From: an uncultured Victivallales bacterium
GTDB lineage: Bacteria > Verrucomicrobiota > Kiritimatiellia > UBA8416 > CAYOBW01
DNA length: 64,000 nt
Reading direction: 5' to 3'
NCBI GenBank assembly: GCA_964555035.1
Contig: CAZKRK010000002.1
Coordinates: 1,968 to 65,967 of the forward strand
A program made the position numbers and the translations under genes. The notes beneath the pieces were generated by a model. The model was not told the DNA's origin. It was given only the letters and a program-made list of their open reading frames with translations, and made no database searches. Shown here piece by piece: positions 21,815 through 55,466 of the stretch; the first letter of the stretch is position 1; every line of letters begins with the position of its first letter.

Positions 21815-24800
21815 TCACTGCTCCACGCTGATACGATAGAATGCGGCGGGAATGCTATCCTGCCCAACCGTGTGAACGTTTTCGGGTGGCGTGGCGGGCA
21901 AGGGACCCGCCTTGGCATCGCCCAGCGGCTGTGCAAGATTCGTCCCCCGCCAGATACGATAGAAACGACCTGACGCACTGTGCCACCTCAAAACACAGTC
22001 CGATCCGCCGGCTTCCAGAGAGTCTATGGAGAAAACGGACATCGCGTTGGTGGGGTCTGTCCCCGCGTACCACTCCTCACGGTTGCTGGCCCCGTCCCCG
22101 TCGCGATCTTCGTCACTGCCGCCGTTTACGGCGTTTGTACTCCCGAAATGCGTGATCTCCCACGTGTCGGGCATACCGTCACCATCCCGGTCGCTGTTGT
22201 CAACTGCTGCCACCCCCGGGGTCGGGCCATTCGTGCTTGCCGCCCAGCTCACGCCGTCATTGGCGTACGCCAACAGTTCGACGCGCAAGAGCGAACTGCC
22301 GCCCCCATCGGGTTCGGTCGGCCACGGCGCTTTGCTATCGTAGTCGACCCACTCGACCGGGATCCACGGGATATCGCCCGTGACGGGATCCGGGTCCCCG
22401 GGGCGTTTGAGGGAGAGCCTTTCACCCGCATTGTTCAGCATGCCCTCATAGGGACTCAGAACACGCGTTCCCGAGGGGACCGTGTACATGTTCGTGAAAG
22501 CCGCGGCATTTGTCGGCGCCACGAGCAGCGTTTCGCCCGCGGCCATCACCACTCCCGTTGGCATGGAAAAGCGAACCGCACCCCGCAACCGCCACGTATT
22601 CGATGGGTACGAAACGTCGTAGAGCGGCACACTGGTGTCCGCCGTGTTGTGCAACTCAATGAATTCAAACGCGTTGCTGTCTGACGGATGATAATGGATC
22701 TCGCTGATTACCACCGGCCCGACCCGCGGGGCGGTATTCCCGCTTCCGGAACTCTGCGCACGCATGGGCGCGAAATCGACGGTGCCGTCGCGGCAAAGGT
22801 GGCGCCCGTACGTCTCGTCGCGCGGGGCCGCCTCGAACTCGCGGTAGTCGCGGTAGCCGGTCATAACCCCGGACTCACCCGAGGTCAGGCAGACGGCATC
22901 CCCCAACTCACTGAAAGCAAAGCCGTTGGTCGCGACGGCATTGGTGCCGAAATGGGCATGTTCGGTCAGCACCGCGTAGCTGCCGGGCAGAATCGCCGCC
23001 ACGTTGCTCACCGCGATCTTCGTTGGTTCGTCCTCGTCGTCGCTGAGAAACCAACCATTGATGTCGAGCGTGTTCGTGCCGGCGTTGTACAACTCGATCC
23101 AGTCACCGGGATTGTCATGGTCCTGGTGCGAGAGCACCTCGTTGATCACCAGGGAATCCGCACTGATGAACGCCTCGGGCGCCCTCCCGGGCGTTCCGCC
23201 CGTTCGGGCGCTGGCACGCCAGGACGAAGCGTTGCTCCAGGCGCCGGCATCGGCCTGGGCGTCGAGAAGCGTAAGCGAGAAATCATCGCCATCTGTCAGA
23301 ACATACCAGTCATCGTCGTAGCGGAAGGACTGGATGGTACGCTCGGCGCCGTCGCGCAGCGCCAGTGTTTCGCCCGCATCGTCGAGCGCACCCGGCAGGA
23401 AGAAGCGTCCCCTGTACTCGCCGGCGATGTTCGTCGTGTGCCAATTCGTGTGACGGCTCTTGAACCCATCGATATCCTGGACAAGAACAACGTACTCGCC
23501 GGGATCCAGGGTGGCGACATCGCCTTCCGTGAAGTCAAAGCGAATGCCGTTGGTGAACGCGATTCCGGCCAGGCCGACGGTCTGTGTTCCCGTGTTGAGA
23601 AGCTCGATGAACTCGTGACTGTTCGCCGTAAGGTTCGACTGCGCCGGACTGGGCGCGGCGGGATGGTACATGATTTCGGTCACGCGCAGAGTGGTAGGTG
23701 TGTCGATGGTAAAGACGGCCTCGGTCAGCGCGCTCCAGACACCTCCGGCGCCAAAGGCGCGGGCCTTGACCACGGTGTTGCGGGTGAGCGGAAGGGGGGT
23801 GCTGTAGAGGGCGCCCGCGATGCCGCCACCTATCGCGCGCGGGTCGCTGCCGTCGAGCGTGTAGTAGACGCTATCCGTGGACGAAATGCTCAGCGCGAAA
23901 CCGCTCGTGAAGAGTCCCCCGTGCTGCGCGAACACAGGCGCCGCCACGCCCGGGTACAACCCCGCTCCCTTCAGTTGGTTTAACACAATCTCTGTTCGGG
24001 ACTCATGAGCAGCCCTGATGTAGTGGTTGAGAATACTGTCAACGACGGGCAGCCAGTCATCGTCGCGCGTGTACGGATTGTGGATAGTTACGGCGTCACC
24101 CCAGCGAGCCGACTCCGCAATGACCGCGAGATCGATTTCGGCTTTGCGCTTGCTGAAGAGCGCTCCAGCGACGTCCGGCGTGAGCACGCCATCATTGAGG
24201 AAATGCCGATGAATGCGATCGGCAAGGCGCATCTTGTACTCGGTATTACCCGTTAGTTTTACATGCAGCCACCAAGGATTGAAGTTCTCTCGTTCGTCGA
24301 GTGACGGACCAAGCTGAACCGAGACACGATTGATGGTAAGGGCATCCGCTTGGCTCACCTCCAGCGAAAACTCCGAATCGTGGGCGATATACTGGAAACC
24401 GACCGGGTCGTTGCGATTGAACACCGCGATACAGTTGCGAGGCTGATCGACTGAGCCGGGAGGCCCGAGTGGTGAATCGCGGTTACCGGTGTAGAAGACG
24501 GTCAGCATGTAATCTATCACGTTGTCGACGTCAAGATAGCAGGGGTAGTCGGGGTTGCGTGTACCGTCCGCGTTCATGCCCTGCAGCCGGAAGTAGACGG
24601 CATTATCGGTGACCCCGTCGTCGATCCCATCCCTGAACCGACCGCAATAAGCGTTCGTAGTGCCATCTGCCGCATACATCCGCCCCGAGCCGGCGTCCGC
24701 CTTGACCGTGTCGTAGTCATCGGAATCGCCGCCGAAGTAGGATTCGCCGAAGCGTGCATCGGGGCGTTCCTCGGACTGGTACAGCCCCCAGTACACCCCG

Positions 24801-26773: not shown

Positions 26774-27450
26774 TTATGGCATTGACACTTCAAGTCGATA
26801 GTAGCGCTTGGGCACGGCGTTGGTGTCGATCATCATGTCATTCGTGCCGGATCCCGGCCGCGGGCCCTGCCCCAATATGTTGTCCCAGTTGGTCTGCATC
26901 AGGTCATCAATGAACTGCAGGACATACACCCGTCCCGTACTGGAATCGAAACGGACCGCCATGGAATTGGTCACCAGCAAACCCGTCAGACGGAGGTAGG
27001 AATTGGAGTCGGTTGGGTCCGTATCCGCAATGTACTCCTGAAGGTCCGAGTGTGGGTCACTGTCATGGGCCGTCGTGTCGTTGGCGTTGGTTGTGCTGCC
27101 CCAATACAGCAGCTCCCACGTATCGTCTATGCTGTCCCCGTCATCGGGCGGAAAGCCACCCGCATCTACTGTAAACCCGAAGTTGAGGTTCCCGACCCAG
27201 CAGCAGTTGGCGCCGGATTCCTCGGTGATGGTGCAGACGGTCTGCGGCGCGGTGAACACGTAATTATCGACGTCGGCGCCCAGACTATCACCGCCCACGC
27301 TCCAGGTACCCGAACTGAACCAGTCGAAATCAAGTCCCGTAAACCCGGCAAATGTCAGGCCGGTGGTCTCCGTTGCGGCAGCCCCATTCAGGCCGTAAAC
27401 CGCATTGCTCACTGAAAAGACCAAAGTCTCGTAGCTGTCGATGCGTTTCG
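26774..27450 (-). repeat. Direct DNA repeat (about 0.7 kb, high identity) encoding the C-terminal domain plus the end of the last module. The closest copy is at 32138-32830. Lower-identity copies lie at 36994-37450, 43486-43930 and 50250-50700.
   Basis: By eye, 27100-27300 and 32480-32700 are about 90% identical or better (example shared string: ccagcagcagttggcgccggattcctcggtgatggtgcagacggtctgcggcgc). The antisense ORFs in the track are near-duplicates: 27075..27263 versus 32376..32636, both ending QQQLAPDSSVMVQTVCGAVNT, and 27166..27351 versus 32539..32724. Confidence 0.7.
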
Positions 27451-30400
27451 GCTTACCTCCGCCATCACCCGTACTCGCCACACCAAAGTAGGCGGAGGCG
27501 TCTTTGCGTGTTGGGCGACATTCAGTCTTCGTAGTGGCGGCTTCGATCCATACCTCAAAGCTCAAGGTATCGGTATCGTTCCCGTCATCATCGAGATTGG
27601 CGTCAGTCACCGTGAACGTCCACTTGTATGGATTGGGAGTGCCGCCGATCGCCATGCTCAGCCACTCACCCGTGGGCGTGTTGGTGATCGCCAGCGATCC
27701 ATTCGTGCATGTAGCCGAAGCGGCGAAGCTGCCTCCGTCGGCAGCGCCAAAGTCCGTAATCAGAACCTGCATGCCGCCTCCCGACGGTGCCGTGACCGTG
27801 CCGGTCAGCGAAACGTCCAGTGGGTCGGTGTCAGGATCGTTGGATCCGATCTGCAGTGTGGCGGTGTGCGTCCCGGTATCTGTGCCCGGCGCATACTCCA
27901 CCGTCAGGTTGGTCTCCCCTCCGGCAGCTACCGTACCGGTGCCACCGGCAACGACCGAGAATTTGCCCGTATCCGTTCCACTGAAGCTAAGATTCGTGAT
28001 GGACAAAGGTAGTGTACCCACATTGCTCACCGTTACGACCAGGTTGCTGATTGTGTTTGTCGGCATCGTGCCGAAATCCAACGACGACGGAGACACCCGG
28101 ATATCGGGCTCGGATAGGGCCGTCGTATCGACCTGGAACGCGATGTTGCCGATACGCCACTGCCCAGATGCCACCTCAGCGGTCAATGTGCCCACGGGCG
28201 AAGCAAAAGTCAGATCGACATTATCGCCGCTCATCGTTTCGCCGCCTATGTTGATCGTCCCTCCGGAGAATCGGTCTATGAACACATAGGTAAACCCGAG
28301 GAACGAACCCATGTTGGCGCCCACAGGTTCCCCGTCCAACCCATAGGTCACGCTGCTGACAGAGAAGGTCAGTATTTCACCGGTATCCAGCCGATCATTG
28401 GCGCCTCCTGAATGGGTAAAGTAGTCGAATCCACTCCGCGTGGGCTTGAAGCCGCTGTTCGCCTCGATCGACACAAGCCACTGCATGGTGTCGTTCGCGC
28501 CGCCGACCCCGTTAAGGTCGGCACCGGTAATGGTGAAGGTCCAGATAAAGGGATTCGGACTGCTTCCGCCAGCCGTCGAAAGCCACTCGCCCGTCGGTGT
28601 ATTGGCAACCGTCACCGTTCCGTTGTCGGAATCCGCGTTAGCCCCTGGATTGAATTCATTCGCTTGGAAATCACTGATCGTGACCGTCGTATCCGGGAGG
28701 GACTTCGTGGCCGCGATCAGGGCAAGGTTCGTCGGGTTAGTATCCGGGTCATTGGACCAGATATGCAGCACGGCACTGTGCGTTCCCGGACTCGCTGCGG
28801 CCGAATATCGCACGGTGATGTTGGTCGAGCCCCCCGCCCCGACCACACCCACGCCACCCATGACGGAAAACCTACCCGCATCCGTTCCGGTGAAGGTGCA
28901 GTTGGTCACATTCAACACGGCCAGTCCCATATTGGATATCTCTGCCGCCAAGTCCCTGGTCCTGTTGACCGTGTTGCTGCCGAAATCCAGCGGCGAGGCC
29001 GTAATGATGGCGATGTCCGGCTCGACGGTATCCAGCGCCCGGCCTTGGAGTGAGACCTCCGCAGGGTTAGTGTCCGGATCCGGGGACCAGATCCGCAGTG
29101 TGGCAGTGTGCGTGCCCACCGCCGCGCCCGGCGCATATTGCACCGTCAGGTTGGTCTCCCCTCCGACGGCGACCGTACCGGTGCCGCTATCGACAATGGA
29201 GAACTTGCCGAAATCCGCTCCGGCGAAGGTCAGATTGGTGATGGGTAGCGGCTGGCCGCCCATATTGAGCACGTCTACGCTCAGATTGCTGGTCGTTCCG
29301 GTCAGGAGCGTTTTGTAGTCAAGCGCGGAGGGTGTCACATCGATGTCGAACGGAGGCAGGCTCGCCATGTCCACTCTAAACCCGAAGTTCAGGTTGCCAA
29401 CCCAGCAGACACCGCCGGCGGTGTTGGTCACGAGCAATTCGCTCTGATCCTCGCTCAGGACAAGATCGGCAACATCCTCGACGACACTGTCCCCACCGAC
29501 ACTCCAGACACCAGAGGCCCAATCGACGTCTCCGCCGCTGAAACCGTCGAAGATCAGACCGCCGGTCCGATTGGTGGGCCCGCCGTTCAGGCTGTAGGCC
29601 GCGTTGGTCACCGAGAATAGCAGGGTCTCGGTCTCGGCGAGCCGCGTCGGGTTTCCCCCGCCTTCGCCTTCGCTCCCCACCCCGAATCTCCAGGTCGAAC
29701 CATCACGGGTTGGTCGGCAATCCGCTCCCGAAGCCGTCGCCGTGACCCAGACTTCCCAGGTCAGCGTGTCGTCGTTATCGCCATCGAGGTCGGCTCCGGT
29801 AACCGTGAAGGTCCACCTATACGGGTTGGGTGATGATCCGGCTGTCTGCTCCAGCCAACTGCCGGTGGGCATGCTGCTGATGGTCAACGTCCCATTCGCA
29901 CAGGTCGCCGAAGGCGCATTGCCACCGCCATCGCCCGCGCCAAAATCGGTGACAAGGACCTTAGCACCGGGCGGTTCCGTGCCCGTCACAATGTTGGTCC
30001 AGTCAGAATAGCCCGAAAAACTCCCACCCAGGTTGGCGTTCGTCGCACCAACACGATAGAAGAATCGCGTGGACTCCATGCCCGTTTGGTGCACCCATTG
30101 CGTCGCCACAAGCTCGTGATGACCGGTCACCGCCGATCCCTCCTGATAGTACTCCACCACGAATCCCGTGCCGTGGTCGTCTTGGTCACTCCATCCGAGA
30201 ATGACTCTCGAGTCGTTTGTCGAGATGCCGGTGATCGTCGGGGTCTGGGCCGCCGATAGATCCGTTACCAAGCTCATCTTCGCTGATGGCATCGGATTCC
30301 ATACCTCATTACTGGCCATGAATCGCAGCCAATACTCGGTGTCCGCATCAAGCCCCGTAAGCCAGGCCGTAACCACACCGCCCGTGGTCACCGGAAGCGT

Positions 30401-31408
30401 CGCGTTGGTGTAGGCCCATCCGCCAACCGGTTTCTCTATGACATCCCACTCCAGCGTCACGGTGGTATTCGTCGGAGGATCCACGTACAGAGATCCCACA
30501 GCCAACGCATTGGACGTGGTGATCGTCTCGTTGGATACCGCCGCGCTATCCCAGCGCAAGTAGAGATCGTCCACCCCCATGTCTTTTGTATCGGCAATCC
30601 ACGCGTCCATCAGTGCCCGCATCTCATCGACCCTGGTCTGGTGTTCCACCGCATCGATGAGGTTGGTGACCTCATGCGGGTCAGTCAACGTGTCGTAGAA
30701 CTCCTCGTCCGGCTTGGGACTCGTGAAGAAAAGAGCTTGGTCCGCATTGAGTTGCCCAAGGTCGAACATCTCCAGCATAGTCGGCCGCATCGGTCGGTGC
30801 GACCTGATGTAGCCGCAGTCCCAGTACCCCAGCTCCGGCTTGTAGTTACGGATGTATTTGTAGCGGGTATCTCTAACGCTCCTGATTATGTCAGTGACTG
30901 AGTCGACCCTATCGCGTGCACCGTAGATATGGGTGCGTGGAACCGCATTGGAACCAATGAATGGGTGCCCGTCGTACCAATCCGGCACCTCCACCCCCGC
31001 GATATCCAGAATGGTCGCCGTCACATCAATCTGACTGAGCAGGTTCGTGTCGGTCGTGCCGGGTGCCAAATGCCCCGGCCAGCGGATGACAAGCGGCACG
31101 CGCATTCCATAATCGTAGAGCCAGGTTTTGCCACGCAGGTGACAGATCCCATTGTCACCCATGAAGATCACGACCGTGTTGCTGGCGATACCCTCGCTCT
31201 CGAGACGATCAAGGATCTCGCCAACCTGGGCATCCATGTACTCCATGGCATCCAGGTAAAGCGCCCAGTCGTCGCGGACGACCGGATGGTCTGGATAAAT
31301 AGGCGGGAACACGACCTCATTAGTGCTGACAGGGTCCGCCGATGCATCGCGGTACGGCTGCCAGCCGGCACCGTCATGCCGGTGCGTGGCAGTCAGCGTG
31401 ATCTGGGC

Positions 31409-31413
31409 AAAAA
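31409..31413 (-). other. Frameshift site: T5 homopolymer on the coding strand (AAAAA on the plus strand). The paralog implies T6.
   Basis: Frame N reads cag ccg ttt ttg ccc aga tca cgc tga. Frame C reads cca gcc gtt ttt gcc cag atc acg. Only about 10 codons are open in both frames, and they bracket the run. Confidence 0.6.
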
Positions 31414-32137
31414 CGGCTGGCTATTAGCGGCGGACCAATTGCCCCCGTCAAAGAGAGGGCTCGTCGTAACGAAATTATGGTCTGTTTTGTCGCTGTAGTC
31501 GACACCGCAGCCGTTGGCCGTGTGGTAGCCATTCTCCTGAAGCAGATGCGTGAAAGGCTTCATGCCTTCCGGAAGAACGATGTTCCTGCGCCGCTGGTCC
31601 TGCGTGTCCGTCCTCGTCTGGTAGACGCCAACTAACATCGCGTTGCGGCAAGGCGTGCAGGTCGATGAAGTCCCAAAGACTTCCGTGTACTTGACGCCCG
31701 CGGCAGCCAACCCGTCTATGTTGGGCGTCTGAACAGCCGGATGACCATAGCACGATTGCTGTTTGCCGATGTCCTCGGCCATGATCCATACGATATTGGG
31801 CACATCTCCCGCAGCTTTCGCGCCGCCGAACACGCACGTGGCCAGCGTTATGCCGAATGCGGCGGCATAGAGACAGCACCGCACGGCCTTGCCAAAGAAT
31901 CCAAATCTGTTTCCCATTCCTGTGCCAATCACCCTTCCTGCTTTCTCTCGTCACCCGCCGCTTCTTCGTCTTCGCCAACAGTCATGCCCATGCTTCACAT
32001 ACACCCGCTCTCCCTTATGCATACCTCAAAAGGACCACGTGCACAACCGTGCCGGTGGCAACGTATCGGCCAGAAACATGCACGTCGCGCAACTTCCCGC
32101 TTGCGTTGCAAATGGTGAGCGGCCACAGGACTCAATG

Positions 32138-32830
32138 TTACGGAAGCGGCGGCAATGAGACCTCAATCCGATAGTGTCGCTGAAGCGGGTCATTGGTATC
32201 AATCATCACATCATTCGCACCAGATCCCGATCTCGGCCCCTGCCCGGGCACATTGCTCCAGGTCGTCTGCATCAGGTCATCGATGAACTGCATCACGTAA
32301 ACGCGCCCCGTGCTGGAGTCGAAGTAGACCGCCACGGAGTTGGTCGCGAGTAGACCCGTCAGACGGAAGTAGGAATTGGAGTCGGTCGGGTCCGTATCGG
32401 TGATGTACTCCTGCAGATCGGTGTGCGGATCCGTGTCGGACTTAGAGGTGTCGGTGGCGGTGCTGGTATCGCTGAAGTACTTCAGCTCCCAGGCATCGTC
32501 TATGCCGTCCCCGTCGCCGGGCGGAGAGCCACCCGCATTCACCGTGAACTCGAAGTTGAGGTTGCCAATCCAGCAGCAGTTGGCGCCGGATTCCTCGGTG
32601 ATGGTGCAGACGGTCTGCGGCGCAGTGAACACGTAATTATCGACATCGGCGCCCAGGCTATCACCGCCCACGCTCCAGGTGCCTGCGTCGAACTGGTCGA
32701 AATCAAGACCCGTAAACCCGGCAAACGTTAGCCCGAGGGTCTCCGTTGCGGCGGCTCCATTCAGGCCGTAGGCCGCGTTTGTCACAGAGAACGTCAGCGA
32801 CTCGCCATTATCATCAATCCGCCCTCGGGT
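32138..32830 (-). repeat. Second copy of the direct repeat described at 26774-27450
   Basis: Same evidence as for 26774-27450; these are the 3' ends of adjacent giant genes. Confidence 0.7.
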
Positions 32831-49400: not shown

Positions 49401-50190
49401 CACGCGTTTCGAACGTCTGGTAGGCCGCTTCGTCCGGAAAGCGAAATACCTTGCCACCCAGCGTGGCGAGAACGGGATACTCCGCTGCTTCGTCACTGTG
49501 AACATCCTCGAACCATGATCCCGCATCTTCCACCGGTATGGGTTGGAGCACCTCTTCCCGCAGGACTGCCACATCGCCGAGCTGAATGCCCTGGGCGGGC
49601 AGCGCCATGCGCGTCAACTGCGCGTGCCGCCAGCCGTAAACGCGGGTCCGCGCACGCGTGCCGTCCGCAAAGCGGACATGGATTCTGTCCTCCTCGCGAC
49701 CGCCGCAAATGTGCTCCTCGTCTTCTGCGCAAGCGGCACACACGGGCAGGACATTCACTTCAACCGTCTCGCTGAACGGCCGTTCCACAAGGGCCTGCAC
49801 GGCTTGTGGCAACGCATGCCATTCGTGATAACCGATCGATTGCTCGATGGCCGCCCGCGGGTCCCGCGCGATCAGTTCTCGCATGGCCGTGCTGCGTGCC
49901 CGGGCTCGTTCGATCCCCGCGGCAACAAGCGCATCCCGGTCGTCATCCGGGGACTCGGAGTACGCATCAAGCCATACCCTGAAGTCCGAGAAGTCTGTCC
50001 GCGCCGGCCCCGGAGTCGTCATGTCCGCTTCACTCGCGTCGACCGCCTCGACGAATCCCTGTACCGGCGCTCGCGGCCTTTCCGGAGTCGTTGAGGAGTT
50101 CTTGAGAAGGACAAGGCCCACCGTGCAGAAGACACCGGCCGTAGCGACCGCGGCAGGCACCTGCCACACATTCCGCACGCGTTTCCTCAT
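43486..50190 (-). CDS. Giant secreted protein (2234 aa): zinc metalloprotease (HExxH) + PKD-like domain + autotransporter-associated beta-strand repeats + three choice-of-anchor-D (ASH) domains + novel module + InlB-B-repeat-like domain + right-handed parallel beta-helix (pectate-lyase fold; candidate GH/PL domain, about 44000-45330) + conserved C-terminal domain
   Basis: Signal anchor AVATAGVFCTVGLVLL. HELGHNFGLYHA at about 48886-48900. PKD-like ELSYFWDFSDG. Beta-strand repeats GNLTKTNEGTVVLGGANTYSGMTTVHGGTLDVDG. GSVNGGVVNGWYTNGVAATGITATPDGGYLFAGWMGD. Beta-helix NLVVRNVEIHDCKLGSSEALVLNGNIDGFEVTGCTVHDNDNIGIDF...NTIHDCDIGLEV...NNLICRNYTGGIFLGG. C-terminus: DSDGDGILDAWEMEHWNSVTNADETTSSDTDPHTDLQEFIADTDPTNAASYFRIKSI...QRYYRLEVERP. 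Confidence 0.8.
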   Translation of the reverse strand: MRKRVRNVWQVPAAVATAGVFCTVGLVLLKNSSTTPERPRAPVQGFVEAVDASEADMTTPGPARTDFSDFRVWLDAYSESPDDDRDALVAAGIERARARSTAMRELIARDPRAAIEQSIGYHEWHALPQAVQALVERPFSETVEVNVLPVCAACAEDEEHICGGREEDRIHVRFADGTRARTRVYGWRHAQLTRMALPAQGIQLGDVAVLREEVLQPIPVEDAGSWFEDVHSDEAAEYPVLATLGGKVFRFPDEAAYQTFETRARGFEQSSIGPHNGSGLVLALMLDSAGNTSAAEGVFPAVQGVWTETVKTAVLIRVDFSDRPVTNYDHTLMSERMNTVSNFYDEMSWHKTGFASTIDTNVYRMSSNSTYYADNRVELHDEAMAAAGVTLDDYDHVLVLHGAIGVSWSGFAYIGGQRVWLRYSNVKTIAHELGHNFGLYHANRWLPPAGSANPVDPTGSSVEYGDNTDNMGRGDLPTGHFSARQKRILNWLELPKVHSISTSATNRIYRMDHGDTDTNTMRAVEVYRNAGNYYHVGYRQLWTNDTFQYYEKGIQVLWVRSSSVNGNLLDLHPGGTINDAGLPVGETWSDTTHDIHITPIGRGGTTPNEWIDVAVNYGPFAGNLAPTGTLEVAASGDVGEAVVMTVSAGDPNGDELSYFWDFSDGVVHPSHPVLTNTWNSAGIKGFSVTVSDRKGGKLVLTGEIMIYTTLTERRFTGGNGDPLWGRTLNWDPNDIPDSASEAAVFDGDNNSQTRLDMRQGSFDIAQIVVRSPATVVGIRCPNNPANTLTVQPVATSNVVGMDMSVATKDFMFVGTSHPWTCIVAGDQRWDVTGGGDLSVESGVMIDLGSDTLSLNVGPSRTVDVQGVVMGTGNLTKTNEGTVVLGGANTYSGMTTVHGGTLDVDGSIGGTGTVTVGVAGTLSGNGTVAGAVTVVGTVDLSGDVALGTLSLSSNLTLEAGSALTFDIGVTADSIAVGGAVTTDGAVTVNLSEAAGMALGTYDLVTGTSLGLTSDSFALGSHPGEYGFALTNSMDGDLQVVVAVMPGPDIGILTPLPLDFGVVGTGTIIHLSVTVTNGGDGVLNITNFTFGGSSAFSVLSGIGAVAVGATTEIAVQYEAGASVTSHSGTLYIWSDDPNDNPVSVGLRGDAVSAFGTTITVADINDDMTATTNAGAGADNGALALVGSSDPGGLPSPSPVTWTLQVTGADLDGGGTANDSMQFDLVFTTSGGNLETGAGQNMYFAVQGGVNNRIQAGVAAGGANETLTLTVPTVTFGLNGAAATDRTGEFLGFTGADFHLFKQSAGTVGGQGFSTGGSGAYFPGLVFTNLQSLLTEVTAGSGRGGGGFDFQLRTGPPAPLASNTLEIVSAHGSPNPTVGVHTNDYGASVTNSVATPADEAAGQRWACTGWAGTGSTPASGTANSTTFTITADSTLTWQWTNEYELAVSAGANGSVNGGVVNGWYTNGVAATGITATPDGGYLFAGWMGDVPPANTNDSPLDLTMDQARTVVATFAPVRAPHIGVTPSSLDFGTNTVGSTSNLSVMVTNSGDAVLNITNFTFDAFTNEYSVLSGTGAVAVGGSTNITVQYAPTHAATHAAILSIWSDDSSNNPKDIPLTGAATVRATGYYVATNGNNTWDGSLATPWATVQYGVSNVMAGDTLYIRGGVYNERVTLYRSGSAAGGYITVTNYAGETPVIDGTGITVGDTDGLITFNSQDYITLDGLEIRDFITATRWRVPMGVYINGDSSFIRLRNLKIHRIESNYDGGGSYVTGADAHGVGVYGDHASNPITNLVVRNVEIHDCKLGSSEALVLNGNIDGFEVTGCTVHDNDNIGIDFIGHEGTCSDGALDQARNGICTDNLVYNINTTGNPAYRDGGSYDRSAGGIYVDGGKQIVIERNTIHDCDIGLEVASEHSGKYASYITVRNNLICRNYTGGIFLGGYDSGRGNAQYCTFIGNTLYHNDTAKDYTGEICLQWHISDCEFENNLIVALKNEGGDAVYVGGSGGSGSTPANTRFDYNWYYCDDATHGGPSFRWGSNEGYAWSWWRNRNHETNGTYDVDPLLVSATNGHLQASSGARDAGRSRGDNGAHDMDGETRIMGMAPDIGADELLPDSDGDGILDAWEMEHWNSVTNADETTSSDTDPHTDLQEFIADTDPTNAASYFRIKSIGYTNGVRVCFDSSSGRLYRMRFIDDLQGSVWSNVPGQEQRFGLGPNDTMTDTNAVPQRYYRLEVERP

Positions 50191-50249: not shown

Positions 50250-53200
50250 TTACGGAACCGCCGGCACCGACACCTCGACACGGTAGGACCGCTGAGGCGG
50301 ATCGCTGCTGTCGATCATCATATCGTTTGTACCCAATCCCAACCGCGGCCCCTGCCCGGGTACGTTGCTCCAGCTCGGCCACAGTAGGTCGTTTATGAAT
50401 TGCAGAGTGTAGACACGGCCGGTGCTGGAATCGAAGGTGACGGCCATGGAATTCGTCATCACCAGCCCCGTCACCCGGAAGAACGAGTTGGAGTCGGTCG
50501 GGTCCGTATCGGCGATGTACTCCTGCAAGTCGCTATGCGGATCCGTGTCGAAGCGCGATGTGTCGTCCGCGGTGGTCGTATTCCCCCAGTACCGAAGCTC
50601 CCATGCATCGAGTATCGCGTCACCGTCCGAGCCGGGACCCCCTGGCGGCTGAACATGAAACTCGAAATTGAGGTTGCCCGGCTTCGCGTTCCCTGTCCCG
50701 GATGGTCTGAAGATCGACAGCGCCTGCTGCGGAGCGCTGAACACGGCGTCGGTCGTGTCGACGGTGAACGTATCCCCGCCGTATGTCCACGGGGACGTGT
50801 TGTAGTTGTCGAAATCGCCGCCTGTGAACCCTGCGAAGGTCAGTCCATCGGTCTGGTCGGCCACCGCGCCGTTCAAGCCGTACAGGGCATTCGTCACCGT
50901 GAAGGTCAGGGTCTCGTTCCAGTTGAGCCGTTTCCTGTTGGCCAGATTCTCGCCGGTACTGGCAACCGTGAACCACTTGTCGTTGGCGTTCTTCGCCGGA
51001 CAGCAGTCCGTCTTGGTCGACGTTGCCGTGATCCAGACCTGCCACGTCAGCGTGTCCGTATCGTTGCCGTCATCGTCGAGGTTGGCCCCGGTAACCGTAA
51101 ACGTCCACTTGTGCGGGTTGGGGCGAGTAGGGACATCGTTGTTCAGCCATTCACCCGTGGGCGTGTTGGCGATGCTCACCGATCCGTTGTCGCAGCTCGC
51201 GGCGGCGGCGCCGGCAGGCGTGCCACTGGCCCCGCCGAAATCCGTGATGTGAACCACGGACGCCAGCGTTGCCCGCGCTTCGCCGTCGAGCGTGACGGTT
51301 GCCGGATTGGTGTTCACGGCATCGGACCATACGTTCAGCGTCCCGCTATGCATAGCCACACCCGTTGGCGCGTAGCGCACGGTGACGTTCGTCGAGTTCC
51401 CGGCGGCGAGGCTGAATGGTGTGCTCTCCAACACGGCAAACGCATCTGAGCCAGTGAGGGTGAAATTGGTAACGGTCAATGCGGCGCCACCTGTGTTTGC
51501 CACCGTCACCGTCAAGTCATGGGGCGAACCGACCAGCCGGGGCCCGAAATCGAGCGACGACGGGACAAGACCGATGTAGGGATCGTTCGGGAGTTCCCTG
51601 AGCTGGTAACCCATCAGCAGGATCCACTTGGTTCCGGTCATATCGATATCCTGCGCCACCCCACTGGCCGTGAAGCTGCCCTTCACGGCATAGGCCGGTC
51701 TGTGGGTTATTGCCCCGCTGCCGGCACCGGTGCCGGCATGCGTTATCGTGTCTCCTCCCCGGTTGGGAATATCCGTGTGGAAGAGCTGGACCGAATACAC
51801 CGTCCCGGCGGTCAGCCCCGTCACGGTCAGCGTACCGGCAAGCTCCACGTTCATAAACCTGTCCATCATGGCTTCGAAATCCCCCCCGATGCCCCCCTCG
51901 CTGTACGTGTCCCCATTGACGTTAACGACATTCCACCCGGGATCGACTGACGTCTGCGCCATGAACGTGACGCCATTGACCGTGCGATTGTCGCCTGCAC
52001 TCGGCGTGTAGTTGACGGCCCTGACAAGCGTGCCGACCGTGCTCACGACACTGTCCCCATTGGCCGCGATTCCCTCCGGCGCGCTCCACGTGATCGTCGT
52101 CGTCTGCATCGCCTGCGCACTCAGTGCAATGTTTGTGGGGTTGCTATCCGGATCGTCGGACCAAACGGACAGAGTGCCGGTGTGTGTGCCCACGCCTGTG
52201 GGCATGTATCGCACGGCAAAGGCAGTCGACCCGCCAGCCGCAACGGTGCCGGTGGTGACGGCGACGGAGAATTCGTTCGAACCGTCGATCGTCATGTTGG
52301 TGATGCTCAACGGCCCCGTGCCGCTGTTGGCCACGATCAGGTCCAAGGTGTTGGTTGTGTTGACTGTTCTGACACCAAAATCGAGGGGAGGTACGTTCGC
52401 AATGGAGATGTCGGGCGTCGGGACATAAGACGATCCCTGCAACAGAACGTTGGTCACGGGCGTGTCCGTGTCATCAGACCCGATGTGCAGTGTCCCCGTA
52501 TGCGAGCCCGCGTTCGCGCCCGGGGTGTACGCCGCGGTGATGTTGGTCGATGCGCCCACATCAACCACGCCGGACCCACTCGTCACGGAGAACACGTTCG
52601 ATCCACTGAATGTGAGATTGGTGATACTCAGTGGGCCTGTCCCCATGTTGGCCACCGTAATGTCCAGGGAGTTGGTCGTGTTGACGGGGATCGGCCCGAA
52701 GTCAAGGGGCGATCCGACCGTGACAGCGATCTCGGGAGTCGGAACCACGCCCTCGCCCTGCACCGTGATATTCGTGGGGTCAGTATCAGGATCGTCCGAC
52801 CATATCGACAGGACGGCGGTATTGGAAACCAGAGCCGTCGGGGCATACTGCACCGAGAGGTTGGTCGATGTGCCGGAAGCCAGCGTGCCGGTGCCCCCAC
52901 TGACAACAGAGAAGACTCCGGGAGTTGCTCCGCCCCATGTCAGGTTCGTAATGCTCAGCAGCGCCGACCCGACATTCCGCACGGTCACATCCAGCGTCCG
53001 GGTCAGGTTGGTGCCAACCTCGCCGAACTCCAGGGGGGACTCGGTAATGATGGCAATGTCGGGCTCCGGCTCCTTCCCCATCTGGAAACTGATGTTGCTG
53101 AGACGATAACTCGCACCGGATTCCGCGCCGGCTGTCAGTACCGATTGCGCTGAACTGAAGGTTACCTTGAATGCATCGTTGCTGACCGTCTCGCCGCCCA

Positions 53201-55466
53201 CCAGCGCGTTGCCGCCGCCCAGGTCCTCCACGTACGCAGCCGTAAAACCATAGAAATGCCCTGTCTGCGGCGCCCCGCCATTCAGCACATAGCTCACCGT
53301 GCCGGGCGTGAACGTAACGACTTCGTCGCCATCGATACGGGTCGGATCGTTCGTACCTACCTGAAAGTAGGCGATCTGCGCATTGGTCGCCGTCCTGTAT
53401 CCGGCGATAAGCTCGCTCACCCCGGCGCCGGCCAGATCCGACTTCAGTTCAATATCCAACGTAATGCTGTCATTGGCGCCGCCCACGGCATCCAACACCG
53501 CATTGGTAATGGTGAATGTCCACGTGGTCGTGAACGGATCGGCGGCAGGGAGCGAGTTCAGACTGGACCCCGTGATGACCACGTCACCGTTGTCGGAGAT
53601 TGTGTCGAACGTTCCGTTGAAATCGGTCGATGTCTCCGCCTGGAAATACCGAACCGTGACCGGCCGCGAAGGCTTCATCGCGTCCGCATCCGCCCGGGAG
53701 TCCGGATCCAGACCGTTCGCCAGTTCATAGGCATTCTGCATTCCGTCGGCATCGTTGTCGGGATGACGCTCGGACAACGCTGAAGCGACCCATGTCCGTA
53801 GGTCATCGAACTTCTCCACCAGGTCGACGCCCACTATGGCCAGAGCCTGCGTATTGGCAACATCCGGATCCGCCTGGTTCGACAGTAGATCAACGTCCTC
53901 GTGAATGTCCTCAGCTTGGCGGAAAAGCCGGTGGCTGTTGCCAAAATCGATTAACTTCCATCCATCCATGGTCTTCATGATTTCATCCGGATCGTAGGCG
54001 CCCGCGCTCATAAAGGGTCGATTGTTCTCCCTGCGCTTCTGTTGACCGCGCAGCAGGTTGAGGAACGACTCGCCGTCGGGGGCCGTGCTATCCGGCAGTT
54101 CGACATGCAGGTATGCCGCGATCGTAGGGAAGATGTCCACCTGGGAAATGGGGTCGTTCACCATGTATCCGGCCGGTGCCTGCCCCGGCCACCTCACGAT
54201 AAACGGAACCCTGTGTCCGCCATCCCAAGGATCTGTCTTTCTGCCTCTCAAGGGACCCGTCTGTTGGCCTGTCGTGTTGTTAGCAGACTGATCCGTGCCA
54301 TTGTCAGAGGTCAGAATTACGACCGTATTGCTGCCGAATCCGTTGGTGTCAATGGCCGAGATGAAGCTTCCCACCCGGTCATCGACCTCCGCCATGAACT
54401 TGGAATACGTCGTCAGCCCCGGCAGGTTCTGATACGGCGGGGTTACCGCCCAGGGCTTGTGCGGCGAATGCATCGCAATATAGGCGAAGAACGGATCCGT
54501 GTCGCCCGACGCCGCCCGGTTCGCGATGTATTCCTCAACATCGGCAACCAGCTTCGGACCGACCTCCACCGACTTGTACGACGGATCCCCAAGAGACCCC
54601 GTTCCGTCGCCGGCCCCATACACGGTCGAAGCCAAATCCTCCTTCGTGAACCAGACAAACGTGTCCGAATTGCGCGCATTGCGGTATCCGCCGGCGCCCC
54701 CGTTAAGCGTGGCATCCCAGAACTGTATGCGGTCGTCATGCAGATACGCATACGGTCCCCGATTGATGGCCGCCGGCATGCCTCGGAAATAGTCAAAGCC
54801 ATGATCCGTGGCGTGTAGTTCGACTGGCCGTTCCCAGTCAACGATCGACTCGTCAGCGGGATTGTCGTACTGCCCCCCCACGCCAAGACGATCGCCACCG
54901 GTTGTATAAAACGCGCCGCCCATGTGCCACTTGCCGAAAGCGGCCGTATCGTAGCCCTCTGCCTTCAATAGCTCCGCGAACGTAACGTCATCGACGCGCG
55001 GCACTTCGTCCCCGCCGATCGTCCCGCCATATTGATGCGTGACCTTGTGGAACTCCCGCCAGTGGTACTTGCCGGTGAGCATCGCATAGCGGCTCGGTGT
55101 ACAAACCGCGCAGGAAGAGTGTCCCTGCATGAACATAACCCCTTGCGCGGCAAATGCATCCATTTTCGGGGTACGCACACCGGGCGCCGTGCCATACACA
55201 TCGCCGTAGGCAGAAATCTCTCCGAACCCCATGTCGTCCGCATAGATGATCACGATGTTGGGCTTGACGGGAGTCGGCGCGAAATCCGGCATCGACGCCG
55301 GATCATTCGTGGCGGACCCGAAGTATGCTTCCGCTTCATCGCAATAGCTATCGCCGTCCGTATCGACGAACGGAAACGCCGGCCCGGGATCCTGCCCCAT
55401 ACTCACCGGCACAACAACCGTTGACAGCACAAACAAGGCAAGGACGCCCCTCATCTTCATATTCAC
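50250..55466 (-). CDS. Giant secreted protein (1738 aa): N-terminal S1 sulfatase (about 53790-55265) + novel module + four choice-of-anchor-D (ASH) domains + 'ITW' beta domain + ASH + second novel module + conserved C-terminal domain
   Basis: Signal peptide MNMKMRGVLALFVLSTVVVPVSMG. Sulfatase block: PNIVIIYADDMGFGE, SSCAVCTPSRYAMLTG, GKWHMGG. ASH repeats PDIAIITESPLEFGEVGTNLTRTLDVTVRNVGSALLSITNLTWGG...VLSIWSDDPDTDPTNITVQG. C-terminus: DGDAILDAWELRYWGNTTTADDTSRFDTDPHSDLQEYIADTDPTDSNSFFRVTGL...QRSYRVEVSVPAVP. Confidence 0.8.
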   Translation of the reverse strand: MNMKMRGVLALFVLSTVVVPVSMGQDPGPAFPFVDTDGDSYCDEAEAYFGSATNDPASMPDFAPTPVKPNIVIIYADDMGFGEISAYGDVYGTAPGVRTPKMDAFAAQGVMFMQGHSSCAVCTPSRYAMLTGKYHWREFHKVTHQYGGTIGGDEVPRVDDVTFAELLKAEGYDTAAFGKWHMGGAFYTTGGDRLGVGGQYDNPADESIVDWERPVELHATDHGFDYFRGMPAAINRGPYAYLHDDRIQFWDATLNGGAGGYRNARNSDTFVWFTKEDLASTVYGAGDGTGSLGDPSYKSVEVGPKLVADVEEYIANRAASGDTDPFFAYIAMHSPHKPWAVTPPYQNLPGLTTYSKFMAEVDDRVGSFISAIDTNGFGSNTVVILTSDNGTDQSANNTTGQQTGPLRGRKTDPWDGGHRVPFIVRWPGQAPAGYMVNDPISQVDIFPTIAAYLHVELPDSTAPDGESFLNLLRGQQKRRENNRPFMSAGAYDPDEIMKTMDGWKLIDFGNSHRLFRQAEDIHEDVDLLSNQADPDVANTQALAIVGVDLVEKFDDLRTWVASALSERHPDNDADGMQNAYELANGLDPDSRADADAMKPSRPVTVRYFQAETSTDFNGTFDTISDNGDVVITGSSLNSLPAADPFTTTWTFTITNAVLDAVGGANDSITLDIELKSDLAGAGVSELIAGYRTATNAQIAYFQVGTNDPTRIDGDEVVTFTPGTVSYVLNGGAPQTGHFYGFTAAYVEDLGGGNALVGGETVSNDAFKVTFSSAQSVLTAGAESGASYRLSNISFQMGKEPEPDIAIITESPLEFGEVGTNLTRTLDVTVRNVGSALLSITNLTWGGATPGVFSVVSGGTGTLASGTSTNLSVQYAPTALVSNTAVLSIWSDDPDTDPTNITVQGEGVVPTPEIAVTVGSPLDFGPIPVNTTNSLDITVANMGTGPLSITNLTFSGSNVFSVTSGSGVVDVGASTNITAAYTPGANAGSHTGTLHIGSDDTDTPVTNVLLQGSSYVPTPDISIANVPPLDFGVRTVNTTNTLDLIVANSGTGPLSITNMTIDGSNEFSVAVTTGTVAAGGSTAFAVRYMPTGVGTHTGTLSVWSDDPDSNPTNIALSAQAMQTTTITWSAPEGIAANGDSVVSTVGTLVRAVNYTPSAGDNRTVNGVTFMAQTSVDPGWNVVNVNGDTYSEGGIGGDFEAMMDRFMNVELAGTLTVTGLTAGTVYSVQLFHTDIPNRGGDTITHAGTGAGSGAITHRPAYAVKGSFTASGVAQDIDMTGTKWILLMGYQLRELPNDPYIGLVPSSLDFGPRLVGSPHDLTVTVANTGGAALTVTNFTLTGSDAFAVLESTPFSLAAGNSTNVTVRYAPTGVAMHSGTLNVWSDAVNTNPATVTLDGEARATLASVVHITDFGGASGTPAGAAAASCDNGSVSIANTPTGEWLNNDVPTRPNPHKWTFTVTGANLDDDGNDTDTLTWQVWITATSTKTDCCPAKNANDKWFTVASTGENLANRKRLNWNETLTFTVTNALYGLNGAVADQTDGLTFAGFTGGDFDNYNTSPWTYGGDTFTVDTTDAVFSAPQQALSIFRPSGTGNAKPGNLNFEFHVQPPGGPGSDGDAILDAWELRYWGNTTTADDTSRFDTDPHSDLQEYIADTDPTDSNSFFRVTGLVMTNSMAVTFDSSTGRVYTLQFINDLLWPSWSNVPGQGPRLGLGTNDMMIDSSDPPQRSYRVEVSVPAVP

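What the first reader, a model, noticed from the sequence alone, without database searches (positions are those of the whole stretch)
21815..55466. Run of seven consecutive giant secreted multidomain proteins (five carrying S1 sulfatase domains) that all share a C-terminal module: candidate undescribed cell-surface sulfatase/CAZyme display system
About 34 kb contains only seven genes of 1026 to 2234 aa, all on one strand with spacers of 9-60 nt. Their catalytic modules are an S1 sulfatase domain in five of them (N-terminal in three, mid-protein in two), a zinc metalloprotease plus a beta-helix glycanase/lyase-like domain in one, and a CotH kinase in one. These are fused to stalks built from the same kit: choice-of-anchor-D (ASH) Ig-like domains (about 18 copies), fn3-like domains, and an unassigned ~170-aa module (at least 11 copies). 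Every protein ends in the same kind of C-terminal unit. Sulfatases are normally soluble periplasmic enzymes of 450-550 aa, so fusing them to long Ig-like stalks with a shared terminal domain is unusual. The shared terminus suggests a common sorting, anchoring or assembly mechanism. This would be a cell-surface enzyme array for sulfated fucan or galactan, sitting downstream of the GH95 / GH29 / GH59 genes.
Basis: partly seen in the sequence, partly recalled or inferred. Interest (0 to 1): 0.85.

Follow-up and report, generated by a model that had tools for sequence, protein, structure and literature searches.

The report
Giant exported sulfatases sharing one tail
An uncultured relative of Victivallales encodes a run of very large exported enzymes, mostly sulfatases, assembled from shared spacer and sugar-binding-like modules and ending in a common tail that many related bacteria put on exported enzymes but that the Pfam and NCBIfam libraries lack.

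Summary
The core observation holds. Seven consecutive minus-strand genes (21815-55466) encode 1026-2234 aa proteins with signal-peptide-like N-termini. Five carry S1 sulfatase domains with intact C-x-P-x-R motifs; one has a metzincin plus beta-helix, and one has CotH plus LTD. All seven end in the same beta-domain, preceded by TSP3-like calcium-binding repeats in six.

Corrections:
- Gene 6 is split by a one-base frameshift in a T5 run.
- I count 13 choice-of-anchor-D copies, not about 18.
- The unassigned module is about 200 aa, with 8 copies here and 3 more in the two upstream genes.
- No GH95 was found.

The tail has no Pfam or NCBIfam model and folds as a generic Fn3-like sandwich. It is not specific to this locus: full-length matches occur in Victivallales and Verrucomicrobiota assemblies on subtilases, metalloproteases, a nuclease/phosphatase-family protein, GH57 and PATR proteins. 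It is nearly always terminal, usually ending ...YR-x-x-V-x-x-P.

This parallels the 2026 Akkermansia Amuc0953/Amuc0451 report. Surface tethering is inferred, not shown. I rate it a new variant of a known kind.

The parts
50250..55466 (-). g1, 1738 aa. Order: signal peptide, S1 sulfatase (residues 69-511, CTPSR), modX, 3 x choice-of-anchor D, Fn3-like region, choice-of-anchor D, modX, tail.
   Evidence: nearest solved sulfatases are S1_15-like (7oze, 6s20)
43486..50190 (-). g2, 2234 aa. Order: signal/anchor-like N-terminus, metzincin-type peptidase (316-542, HELGHNFGLYH at 431), PKD, PATR repeats, choice-of-anchor D, modX, Flg_new_2, choice-of-anchor D, Pel9A/NosD-like beta-helix (about 1614-2107), tail.
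   Evidence: (28.5% identity to the beta-helix protein P0159)
40121..43468 (-). g3, 1115 aa. Order: signal peptide, unassigned 300-aa N-terminal region, S1 sulfatase (310-776, CAPSR), Laminin_G_3 (856-1019), beta-domain of the tail only (no TSP3 part).
   Evidence: 74% identical orthologue in Victivallales MAG locus L001
36994..40074 (-). g4, 1026 aa. Order: signal peptide, S1 sulfatase (60-489, CSPTR), Fn3-like region, DNRLRE/CBM96-like domain (754-877), tail.
   Evidence: 73% identical orthologue in L001
32138..36979 (-). g5, 1613 aa. Order: signal peptide, modX, 3 x choice-of-anchor D, S1 sulfatase (574-991, CAPSR; S1_16-like, 9fo1 E 1e-88), choice-of-anchor D, modX, tail.
26774..31932 (-). 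g6, 1719 aa once repaired; one gene split by a -1 frameshift in a T5 run near 31400. Order: signal peptide, S1 sulfatase (CTPCR), Fn3-like region, modX, 2 x choice-of-anchor D, modX, choice-of-anchor D, modX, tail.
21815..26764 (-). g7, 1649 aa. Signal peptide, 4 x LTD, 2 x CHB_HEX_C_1/Fn3_assoc and CotH (562-889), ending in TSP3 repeats and the tail beta-domain.
50253..50627 (-). Shared C-terminal tail of g1 (TSP3-like repeats plus about 75-aa Fn3-like beta-domain ending ...SYRVEVSVPAVP). The equivalent tails are at 43489-43860 (g2), 40124-40366 (g3, beta-domain only), 36997-37371 (g4), 32141-32515 (g5), 26777-27151 (g6) and 21818-22192 (g7).
50652..51260 (-). modX, an unassigned ~200-aa beta-jelly-roll, CBM-like module (copy in g1). 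Other copies: 53073-53660 (g1); 46138-46731 (g2); 36263-36859 and 32540-33163 (g5); 29372-29965, 28124-28690 and 27167-27772 (g6); 57513-58127 and 56244-56849 (upstream gene); 61767-62360 (second upstream gene).
56193..58268 (-). Upstream 691-aa protein built from the same kit: modX, Fn3-like, modX. It has no catalytic domain and no tail; possible glycan-binding protein.
58434..63947 (-). Upstream ORF of at least 1837 aa with 2 x choice-of-anchor D, one modX and Fn3-like regions. It has no tail, and no signal peptide at the listed start, so the start is probably wrong or shifted.
20420..21781 (-). Stand-alone S1 sulfatase, 61% identical to the sulfatase domain of g6 (the 'free twin').
18873..20483 (-). 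Stand-alone S1 sulfatase, 61% identical to the sulfatase domain of g5 (the 'free twin').
2053..16953 (-). Same-strand genes 3' of the run: a third stand-alone sulfatase (15313-16953), a DUF6288 protein (11295-15431), two GH43-like proteins, GH59 (6402-8435), an SHD1-containing protein and GH29 fucosidase (2053-3537).

Best explanation
This is the outer, polymer-facing part of a sulfated-glycan utilisation locus from an uncultured bacterium related to Victivallales (Lentisphaerota).

Nine same-strand genes are built from one module kit. It comprises choice-of-anchor-D Ig-like spacers, a CBM-like beta-jelly-roll of about 200 aa with no relatives found elsewhere, and Fn3-like pieces. Seven of the nine carry a catalytic or effector domain: five mutually divergent S1 sulfatases, a metzincin plus beta-helix, and CotH.

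Proposed mechanism:
1. The proteins are exported by Sec.
2. They end up outside the cell, where the CBM-like modules hold sulfated polymer and the sulfatases strip different sulfate esters.
3. The common C-terminal tail (TSP3 calcium-binding repeats plus a small Fn3-like domain ending ...YR-x-x-V-x-x-P) keeps them at, or directs them to, the cell surface.
4. Stand-alone twins of two of the sulfatases, a third free sulfatase and GH29/GH59/GH43-like enzymes from the same locus finish the job on oligosaccharides, presumably in the periplasm.

Shown: the domain content, intact catalytic motifs, signal-peptide-like N-termini, the cassette shuffling, the tethered/free pairs, and the distribution and strong C-terminal bias of the tail.

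Inferred: the extracellular location, glycan binding by the module, the surface-retention or sorting role of the tail, and the substrate.
For: - Domains and motifs.
- All seven proteins have hydrophobic N-terminal signal-like regions and no other TM segment.
- Sulfatase domains are 24-35% identical to one another, but the C-terminal cassette is 54-65% identical.
- The g5 and g6 sulfatase domains are 61% identical to the stand-alone sulfatases at 18873-20483 and 20420-21781.
- modX has a CBM-like fold.
- The tail profile finds 31,050 proteins at E<=1e-3 in 1.84 billion representatives (many by the TSP3 part only). Dozens of the top 150 match full length exactly at their C-terminus.
- The end is constrained: 4-7 residues follow [FY]YR, and the last residue is Pro in 39 of 55.
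- Passengers elsewhere are typical exoenzymes: three S8 subtilases, an M12B-like protease, an EEP-family protein, GH57+CBM53 and a PATR protein. One Verrucomicrobia MAG locus holds five tail-bearing ORFs within 16 kb.
- Of 46 retrieved tail-bearing proteins, 25 have clear signal peptides and 9 are obvious fragments.
- Experimental precedent in the same superphylum: Akkermansia Amuc0953 is a multidomain S1 sulfatase with an SPI signal peptide and cell-surface activity. Its final domain resembles a T9SS CTD, and it has a periplasmic twin, Amuc0451 (PMC13524802).
Against: - There is no localisation data for these proteins.
- No scaffold, sortase-like enzyme or outer-membrane translocon is present in the window.
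- A tail-bearing beta-helix protein in the related Victivallales MAG sits among housekeeping genes, so there is no conserved partner gene.
- 11 of 53 tail-bearing proteins have two copies and 5 have only internal copies, unlike cleaved sorting signals.
- The tail profile does not hit the Amuc0953 chain 9S8X at E<=10, so that precedent is an analogy, not shown homology.
- The two upstream kit proteins lack the tail.
- The substrate is not identifiable from the gene content.
Confidence: 0.5

Rival explanations
1. The proteins are freely released exoenzymes. The tail is a structural, calcium-stabilised end domain, or an extra binding domain for matrix, EPS or substrate. It has no role in sorting or cell attachment and spreads only because it is part of a mobile cassette.
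For: The fold is a generic Fn3-like sandwich. Tandem and internal copies occur. No partner machinery was found in the window or beside other carriers. TSP3 repeats are common calcium-binding linkers in many extracellular proteins; most of the 31,050 profile hits match only that part.
Against: A passive domain does not explain why 48 of 53 carriers end within 6 residues of it, nor the conserved ...YR-x-x-V-x-x-P terminus. It also occupies the slot filled by sorting signals in choice-of-anchor and PATR proteins.
Confidence: 0.3
2. The tail is a true secretion tag recognised by a dedicated, still unidentified outer-membrane translocation and attachment system of Verrucomicrobiota and Lentisphaerota. 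It would be a functional analogue of the T9SS C-terminal domain.
For: The tail has an extreme C-terminal position, a constrained end, several carriers per genome and diverse exoenzyme passengers. The Akkermansia study states that an unknown mechanism must move the SPI-exported Amuc0953 to the surface, and notes a T9SS-CTD-like final domain.
Against: There is no match to Por_Secre_tail/TIGR04183 or any other curated sorting-signal model. No machinery has been identified. Duplicated tails occur. No sequence link to Amuc0953 was found.
Confidence: 0.2
3. A dockerin-like assembly: the calcium-binding TSP3 part of the tail docks the enzymes onto a cohesin-like scaffold, giving a cellulosome-style multi-enzyme complex.
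For: A common calcium-binding C-terminal unit sits on many different enzymes encoded side by side. The upstream non-catalytic kit protein (56193-58268) could be an accessory protein.
Against: No Dockerin_1 or Cohesin Pfam hit was found in any protein scanned. g3 lacks the TSP3 part yet keeps the beta-domain. The only PDB 'cohesin-containing protein' hit is non-significant (E 0.04).
Confidence: 0.07
4. The proteins are periplasmic, and the stalks and tail serve only intramolecular or substrate-binding roles inside the cell envelope.
For: Only Sec-type signal peptides are seen. Planctomycetes, which are relatives, are reported to take up whole macromolecules into the periplasm (abstract of PMC13450696, listed).
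Against: Sizes of 110-240 kDa with Ig-like spacers, CBM-like modules and PATR/choice-of-anchor content are typical of surface proteins. The locus also encodes short free twins of two of the same sulfatases, which would be redundant in a single compartment.
Confidence: 0.1

Closest known systems
Akkermansia muciniphila Amuc0953 (multidomain S1_20 sulfatase, PDB 9S8X) and its periplasmic twin Amuc0451 (PMC13524802, 2026)
   Same: Both come from the PVC superphylum. Both are S1 sulfatases fused to a glycan-binding domain and Ig-like domains. Amuc0953 has an SPI signal peptide yet cell-surface activity, and a small beta-sandwich final domain proposed to mediate surface translocation. A surface enzyme is paired with a shorter intracellular homologue, as with the 61% identical pairs here.
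   Different: Amuc0953 belongs to a different sulfatase subfamily (S1_20) and uses different accessory domains (beta-helix mucin binder, PA14). It is a single enzyme rather than a run of seven. Our tail profile does not match the 9S8X chain at E<=10, so homology of the final domains is not shown. No experiment exists for the window's proteins.
Type IX secretion cargo with a C-terminal domain (Bacteroidota)
   Same: An Ig/Fn3-like beta-sandwich of about 70-80 aa sits at the extreme C-terminus of many different exported hydrolases and adhesins. There are many carriers per genome, and each has a Sec signal peptide at the N-terminus.
   Different: There is no match to Por_Secre_tail/TIGR04183. The tail here is preceded by TSP3 calcium-binding repeats and sometimes occurs in tandem or internally. 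Full-length matches were found only in Verrucomicrobiota and Victivallales assemblies. As far as I know, a T9SS has not been described in those phyla.
PEP-CTERM/exosortase cargo of Verrucomicrobiota (PATR and choice-of-anchor proteins)
   Same: The passenger types are the same (PATR repeats, choice-of-anchor D/Q, LamG), and the variable element is in the same position at the C-terminus.
   Different: There is no PEP motif, no C-terminal transmembrane helix and no basic cluster. The tail is a folded domain of about 75 aa.
Cellulosomal enzymes with dockerins, and multimodular CBM-bearing CAZymes
   Same: Different catalytic domains share a calcium-binding C-terminal unit and carry CBM-like modules. 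The genes are clustered.
   Different: No dockerin or cohesin signatures were found. The catalytic domains are sulfatases rather than glycoside hydrolases.
Sulfatase-rich loci of Kiritimatiellales and other PVC bacteria (for example strains F1/F21, PMC6388578)
   Same: There are many exported S1 sulfatases. S1_15/S1_16-like types are prominent (nearest solved relatives; subfamily abundance in F1/F21), and they sit next to fucosidase and galactosidase genes.
   Different: Neither the F1/F21 paper nor the two sulfatase overviews queried with those terms mentions multidomain or modular sulfatases. Here five of eight sulfatase domains sit in proteins of 1026-1738 aa.

Membership tests
S1 formylglycine-dependent sulfatases | Match to PF00884 above the gathering score | tested here: met
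   g1 166.8 bits, g3 97.2, g4 144.9, g5 192.5; g6 69.4 and 58.9 for its two halves; cut-off 25
S1 formylglycine-dependent sulfatases | C/S-x-P/A-x-R formylglycine motif near the start of the domain | tested here: met
   CTPSR (g1), CAPSR (g3), CSPTR (g4), CAPSR (g5), CTPCR (g6)
S1 formylglycine-dependent sulfatases | SulfAtlas subfamily and substrate | tested here: inconclusive
   Only nearest solved structures are available. g5 matches the S1_16 kappa-carrageenan sulfatase 9fo1 at E 1e-88. g1 matches 7oze/6s20 (S1_15-like) at 1e-46. g4 matches 7stt/9fo1 at 1e-46. g3 is distant, at 1e-21. No SulfAtlas HMMs were available.
Choice-of-anchor D domain (NF012200) | Match above the curated cut-off (45 bits) | tested here: met
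   g1 191.7, g5 182.1 and g2 65.7 bits. A local HMM finds 13 copies in g1, g2, g5 and g6 and 2 more upstream.
T9SS C-terminal sorting domain | Match to Por_Secre_tail (Pfam) or TIGR04183/TIGR04131 (NCBIfam) | tested here: not met
   No hit even at E<=10 on the isolated tails
T9SS C-terminal sorting domain | Small beta-sandwich at the extreme C-terminus of Sec-exported cargo | tested here: met
   AF2 model pLDDT 83 with 5-7 strands; 48 of 53 carriers end within 6 residues of the domain; signal-like N-termini
T9SS C-terminal sorting domain | T9SS machinery genes (PorK/L/M/N, SprA, PorU/V) in the genome | not testable with these tools
   Only the 64-kb window and a 54-kb scaffold of this organism are available; none of these genes is in the window
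PEP-CTERM / exosortase cargo | PEP motif, a hydrophobic helix and a basic cluster at the C-terminus | tested here: not met
   C-termini read ...YRxEVSxP. No C-terminal TM-like window and no TIGR02595 hit.
Dockerin-cohesin (cellulosome) system | Dockerin_1 repeats on the enzymes and cohesin modules on a scaffold | tested here: not met
   No Dockerin or Cohesin Pfam hits in any of the ORFs scanned across the window or in the isolated tails
Bacterial TSP3 repeat (PF18884) | D-x-D-x-D-G-x-x-D-x-x-E calcium-binding repeat | tested here: met
   g7 scores 35.5 bits against a cut-off of 25. Strict motifs are in the tails of g2, g4 and g7, and in g1 at residue 570 outside its tail. Looser DxDPxD motifs are in the tails of g1, g2, g4, g5 and g6; none in g3.
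Carbohydrate-binding module (for modX) | Beta-jelly-roll fold resembling known CBMs | tested here: inconclusive
Carbohydrate-binding module (for modX) | Demonstrated glycan binding | not testable with these tools
   Needs recombinant protein and binding assays
Bacteroidota-type polysaccharide utilisation locus | SusC/SusD pair | tested here: not met
   No TonB-dependent receptor or SusD hits in the ORFs scanned in the window

The most novel reading that the evidence does not exclude
The TSP3 plus Fn3-like tail ending ...YR-x-x-V-x-x-P would be the recognition and attachment tag of an undescribed protein-sorting pathway to the cell surface, shared by Verrucomicrobiota and Lentisphaerota. That pathway would be the 'unknown mechanism' invoked for the surface sulfatase of Akkermansia. 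This locus would be a surface array of five sulfatase specificities, held to their substrate by a new CBM family (modX).
Probability: 0.22. Interest if true: 0.85.

Novelty: new variant of a known kind. Interest (0 to 1): 0.55.

Why it matters
PVC bacteria are major degraders of sulfated algal and host glycans, but how they place enzymes outside the outer membrane is unknown. The 2026 Akkermansia study states this gap explicitly.

This locus offers three things:
- A compact natural example in which five different sulfatases, a protease and a CotH protein share one tail. The cassette has clearly been moved between enzymes, which singles out the tail as the candidate tag to test.
- A well-defined sequence family for that tail, absent from Pfam and NCBIfam, that can be used for phylogenetic profiling to look for partner machinery.
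- A new CBM-like module that may bind sulfated glycans.

The tethered/free sulfatase pairs suggest a general two-compartment logic for desulfation.

Tried and rejected
- Exact-protein look-up of g4 found nothing. The look-up succeeded for the 1512-aa g6 ORF.
- Word-indexed homologue searches were largely unhelpful. The tail alone gave no hits. The modX alignment gave none, and neither search returned the window's own proteins, which do exist in the larger collection (P0017, P0022). These negatives are therefore weak.
- Two pattern-based scans of JGI metagenomes for modX found no relatives. modX is also absent from every other fetched locus; the only other locus that holds it, L015, is this organism's own scaffold.
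- An alignment of all seven tails, and one of five modX copies, were too divergent for pattern scans.
- The AFDB Foldseek library was unavailable, so there is no taxonomic survey by structure.
- modX versus the HpiC1-like protein of the same locus showed no relationship (hhalign probability 0.1).
- The C-terminal 200 aa of the two upstream proteins share nothing with each other.
- Promoter and terminator scans did not differ from shuffled sequence.
- DNA self-comparison found no near-identical repeats (maximum 80% over 643 bp), which argues against a collapsed-repeat assembly artefact.
- The tail profile against PDB sequences gave no significant hit and no hit to 9S8X.
- Literature searches for a prior description of the tail found none with the terms tried. 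The sample name was not found in any paper.
Full report
**What is in the sequence**

The window (GC about 0.60) is almost entirely one minus-strand gene array. Between 21815 and 55466 lie seven large ORFs:
- g1, 50250-55466, 1738 aa
- g2, 43486-50190, 2234 aa
- g3, 40121-43468, 1115 aa
- g4, 36994-40074, 1026 aa
- g5, 32138-36979, 1613 aa
- g6, 26774-31312, 1512 aa, plus a 179-aa ORF at 31393-31932
- g7, 21815-26764, 1649 aa

Pfam and NCBIfam confirm S1 sulfatase domains in g1, g3, g4, g5 and both pieces of g6. g2 has an M11/M6-like peptidase, PKD, PATR, Flg_new_2 and a NosD/choice-of-anchor-Q-like beta-helix. g7 has four LTD, CHB_HEX_C_1 and CotH. g2 carries the metzincin signature HELGHNFGLYH at residue 431.

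**Corrections to the observation**

- g6 is one gene broken by a frameshift. The upstream ORF matches sulfatase profile positions 1-104 and the downstream ORF positions 204-301. The break lies in a T5 run ('ccgtttttgccc'), and adding one T restores a 1719-aa ORF.
- The same split is present in an ENA metagenome scaffold that carries this locus (ERZ23498668, scaffold_1291). Another sulfatase gene from that assembly is also split. The frameshift may therefore be a homopolymer error or a real lesion.
- The g5-g6 spacer is about 205 nt. The other spacers are 9-59 nt.
- Iterated local HMMs give 13 choice-of-anchor-D copies in the seven proteins. They also give 8 copies of a module of about 200 aa, called modX here.
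- The two genes immediately upstream use the same kit. 56193-58268 has two modX copies and an Fn3-like domain, with no catalytic domain. 58434-63947 has two choice-of-anchor-D copies and one modX. The window total is therefore 15 and 11, and the system extends beyond the stated coordinates.
- GH29 and GH59 are present, with two GH43-like proteins and three stand-alone sulfatases. No GH95 was detected. These genes lie 3' of the giant genes.

**Export and activity signals**

All seven proteins have an N-terminal basic-hydrophobic segment of signal-peptide type and no other TM-like segment. They are strongly acidic, with D+E at 11-13% against K+R at 5-7%. All five sulfatase domains keep the Cys-type formylglycine motif: CTPSR, CAPSR, CSPTR, CAPSR and CTPCR.

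The nearest solved structures are:
- S1_15-like enzymes for g1 (7oze, 6s20; E 1e-46)
- 7stt and 9fo1 for g4 (E 1e-46)
- the S1_16 kappa-carrageenan sulfatase 9fo1 for g5 (E 1e-88)
- only distant relatives for g3 (E 1e-21)

**Shuffled cassette and paired enzymes**

The five tethered sulfatase domains are only 24-35% identical to one another. In contrast, g1, g5 and g6 share a C-terminal block of about 450 aa (choice-of-anchor D, modX, tail) at 54-65% identity. The cassette has therefore been joined to unrelated catalytic domains.

DNA identity between the paralogous parts peaks at 80% over 643 bp, so assembly collapse is not an issue.

The g5 sulfatase domain is 61% identical to the stand-alone sulfatase at 18873-20483. 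The g6 domain is 61% identical to the stand-alone sulfatase at 20420-21781. The locus thus encodes a tethered and a free version of two specificities.

**The shared tail**

It consists of TSP3-like calcium-binding repeats (DGDGIxDAWE ... DTDPHxDLQEYIADTDPTD) followed by a beta-domain of about 75 aa ending ...QRxYRxEVSxP.
- g3 has only the beta-domain. g7 is diverged (26-28% identity in the tail alignments) but is detected by the HMM.
- The beta-domain matches no Pfam or NCBIfam model even at E<=10. Only the TSP3 part gives sub-threshold similarity, to Amuc_1099-family and MtsD models.
- An AlphaFold2 model from a 17-sequence alignment has pLDDT 83. It shows two short helices and a 5-7-strand sandwich.

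**Distribution of the tail**

- A profile search of 1.84 billion representative proteins gave 31,050 hits at E<=1e-3. Many match the TSP3 part alone, but dozens of the top 150 match the whole profile exactly at their C-terminus.
- In the 165 retrieved proteins, 53 carry the beta-domain. 48 have it within 6 residues of the C-terminus, 11 have two copies and 5 have only internal copies.
- The end is constrained. 4-7 residues (mode 6) follow the [FY]YR motif, and the last residue is Pro in 39 of 55.
- The genome scan placed full-length matches only in a Victivallales MAG and in Verrucomicrobiota, Verrucomicrobiia and Akkermansiaceae MAGs. Matches in Desulfobulbaceae and Alphaproteobacteria covered only the TSP3 part.
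- The Victivallales MAG holds adjacent orthologues of g4 (73% identity) and g3 (74%). This is the basis for the taxonomic placement of the window.
- Passengers elsewhere include three subtilases, a reprolysin-like protease, an EEP-family protein, GH57+CBM53 and a PATR protein. LamG, RHS, FG-GAP and Pel9A-like beta-helix proteins also occur.
- One Verrucomicrobia MAG locus has five tail-bearing ORFs within 16 kb.
- Of 46 retrieved tail-bearing proteins, 25 have clear signal peptides and 9 are obvious fragments.
- Apart from the window's own proteins, only one of these proteins (P0078, a g4-like enzyme) joins the tail to a sulfatase.

**The 200-aa module**

modX has no Pfam or NCBIfam match. The AlphaFold2 model has moderate confidence (pLDDT 74, pTM 0.77) and is a beta-jelly-roll.

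No relatives were found in the other fetched loci or in two metagenome pattern scans. The word-indexed search also found none. These searches have limited sensitivity.

**Interpretation**

The most economical reading is a set of Sec-exported, extracellular, multimodular enzymes for a sulfated glycan. The Ig-like domains act as spacers, modX as a glycan-binding module, and the tail as a common device for staying at, or getting to, the cell surface. The free twins and the glycosidases would act on the products.

The tail has the hallmarks of a C-terminal sorting or anchoring domain: terminal position, a constrained end, several carriers per genome, exoenzyme passengers, and the slot otherwise filled by PEP-CTERM or T9SS domains in choice-of-anchor and PATR proteins.

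Against this, tandem and internal copies occur, no partner machinery was found, and no homology to any known sorting domain was found. The role is inferred. A passive structural or binding domain remains a serious rival.

**Comparison with the literature**

A 2026 study of Akkermansia muciniphila sulfatases (PMC13524802) reports the following:
- Amuc0953 is a multidomain S1_20 sulfatase; its solved chain (9S8X) is 1263 residues.
- Its final domain resembles a T9SS CTD in an AF3 model.
- A shorter homologue, Amuc0451, with an identical binding site, acts intracellularly.

This is the closest known case in both architecture and logic. Multidomain surface sulfatases in PVC bacteria are therefore no longer unprecedented. 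My tail profile does not detect the 9S8X chain, so the two final domains are not shown to be homologous.

The Kiritimatiellales F1/F21 paper reports hundreds of mostly exported sulfatases, with S1_7, S1_8, S1_15 and S1_16 most abundant. Term searches of that paper and of two sulfatase overviews found no discussion of modular sulfatases.

**Verdict**

The 'display system' reading is partly supported.

The tail is an uncurated family found in Verrucomicrobiota and Victivallales assemblies, not a locus-specific invention. modX is an apparently new CBM-like module. The concentration of five tethered sulfatase specificities with free twins is unusual. I rate it a new variant of a known kind, with interest 0.55.

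Noticed in passing
window 31390-31410 (minus strand): g6 is interrupted by a -1 frameshift in a T5 homopolymer. The same split occurs in ENA scaffold ERZ23498668 scaffold_1291, and another sulfatase gene of that assembly (scaffold_8586, locus L018) is also split. This is either a sequencing error in a frameshift-prone assembly or recent pseudogenisation.
   Followed up: partly
window 56193-58268 and 58434-63947 (minus strand): Both upstream proteins use the same module kit (modX, choice-of-anchor D, Fn3-like) but lack the shared tail. They end in short proline / hydrophobic / basic stretches (...PKPEGMVLMVR, ...AAPTLFIVK). The 691-aa protein has no catalytic domain and may be a glycan-binding protein. 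The ORF of at least 1837 aa has no signal peptide at its listed start, which suggests a wrong or shifted start near the window edge.
   Followed up: partly
window 18873-20483 and 20420-21781 (minus strand): These stand-alone sulfatases are 61% identical to the sulfatase domains of g5 and g6 respectively. The tethered/free pairs echo the Amuc0953/Amuc0451 pair in Akkermansia.
   Followed up: yes
window 16926-17678 and 17743-18840 (minus strand): A 250-aa HpiC1-cyclase-like (CBM-like fold family) protein and a 365-aa AhpC/redoxin-family protein sit between the free sulfatases. The HpiC1-like protein is not related to modX (hhalign probability 0.1). No formylglycine-generating enzyme or anSME was seen in the window.
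   Followed up: partly
window 11295-15431 and 4224-6377 (minus strand): A 1378-aa protein matches only DUF6288, and a 717-aa protein matches only a C-terminal SHD1 domain.
   Followed up: partly
locus L003 (Verrucomicrobia MAG CALMUP010000013.1), 3-16268: Five ORFs in 16 kb end in the same tail. They include two subtilases and an EEP-family protein, and one is on the opposite strand. Clustering of tail-bearing genes therefore recurs outside this organism.
   Followed up: partly
loci L016/L017 (same Victivallales MAG as L001), 10001-11704: A 567-aa Pel9A-like beta-helix protein with the tail resembles the C-terminal 620 aa of g2 (28.5% identity). It sits alone among housekeeping genes (rho, tig, clpP, clpX).
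   Followed up: no
window 44044-46824 (+), 35168-36904 (+) and other long plus-strand ORFs: Long ORFs lie antisense to the giant genes (up to 926 aa). They are probably shadow ORFs of GC-rich coding sequence. The gene calls recorded for the matching ENA scaffold include none of those within the stretch it covers (g4 to g7).
   Followed up: no
g1 residues 1108-1282 (window 51621-52145) and g3 residues 1-309 (window 42542-43468): These unassigned regions share weak similarity (27% over 84 aa, E 3e-4). g4 490-753 and g6 366-569 share a 60% identical Fn3/PhoD_N-like segment. Several other segments of 160-315 aa in g2, g3, g5 and g7 have no family assignment.
   Followed up: partly
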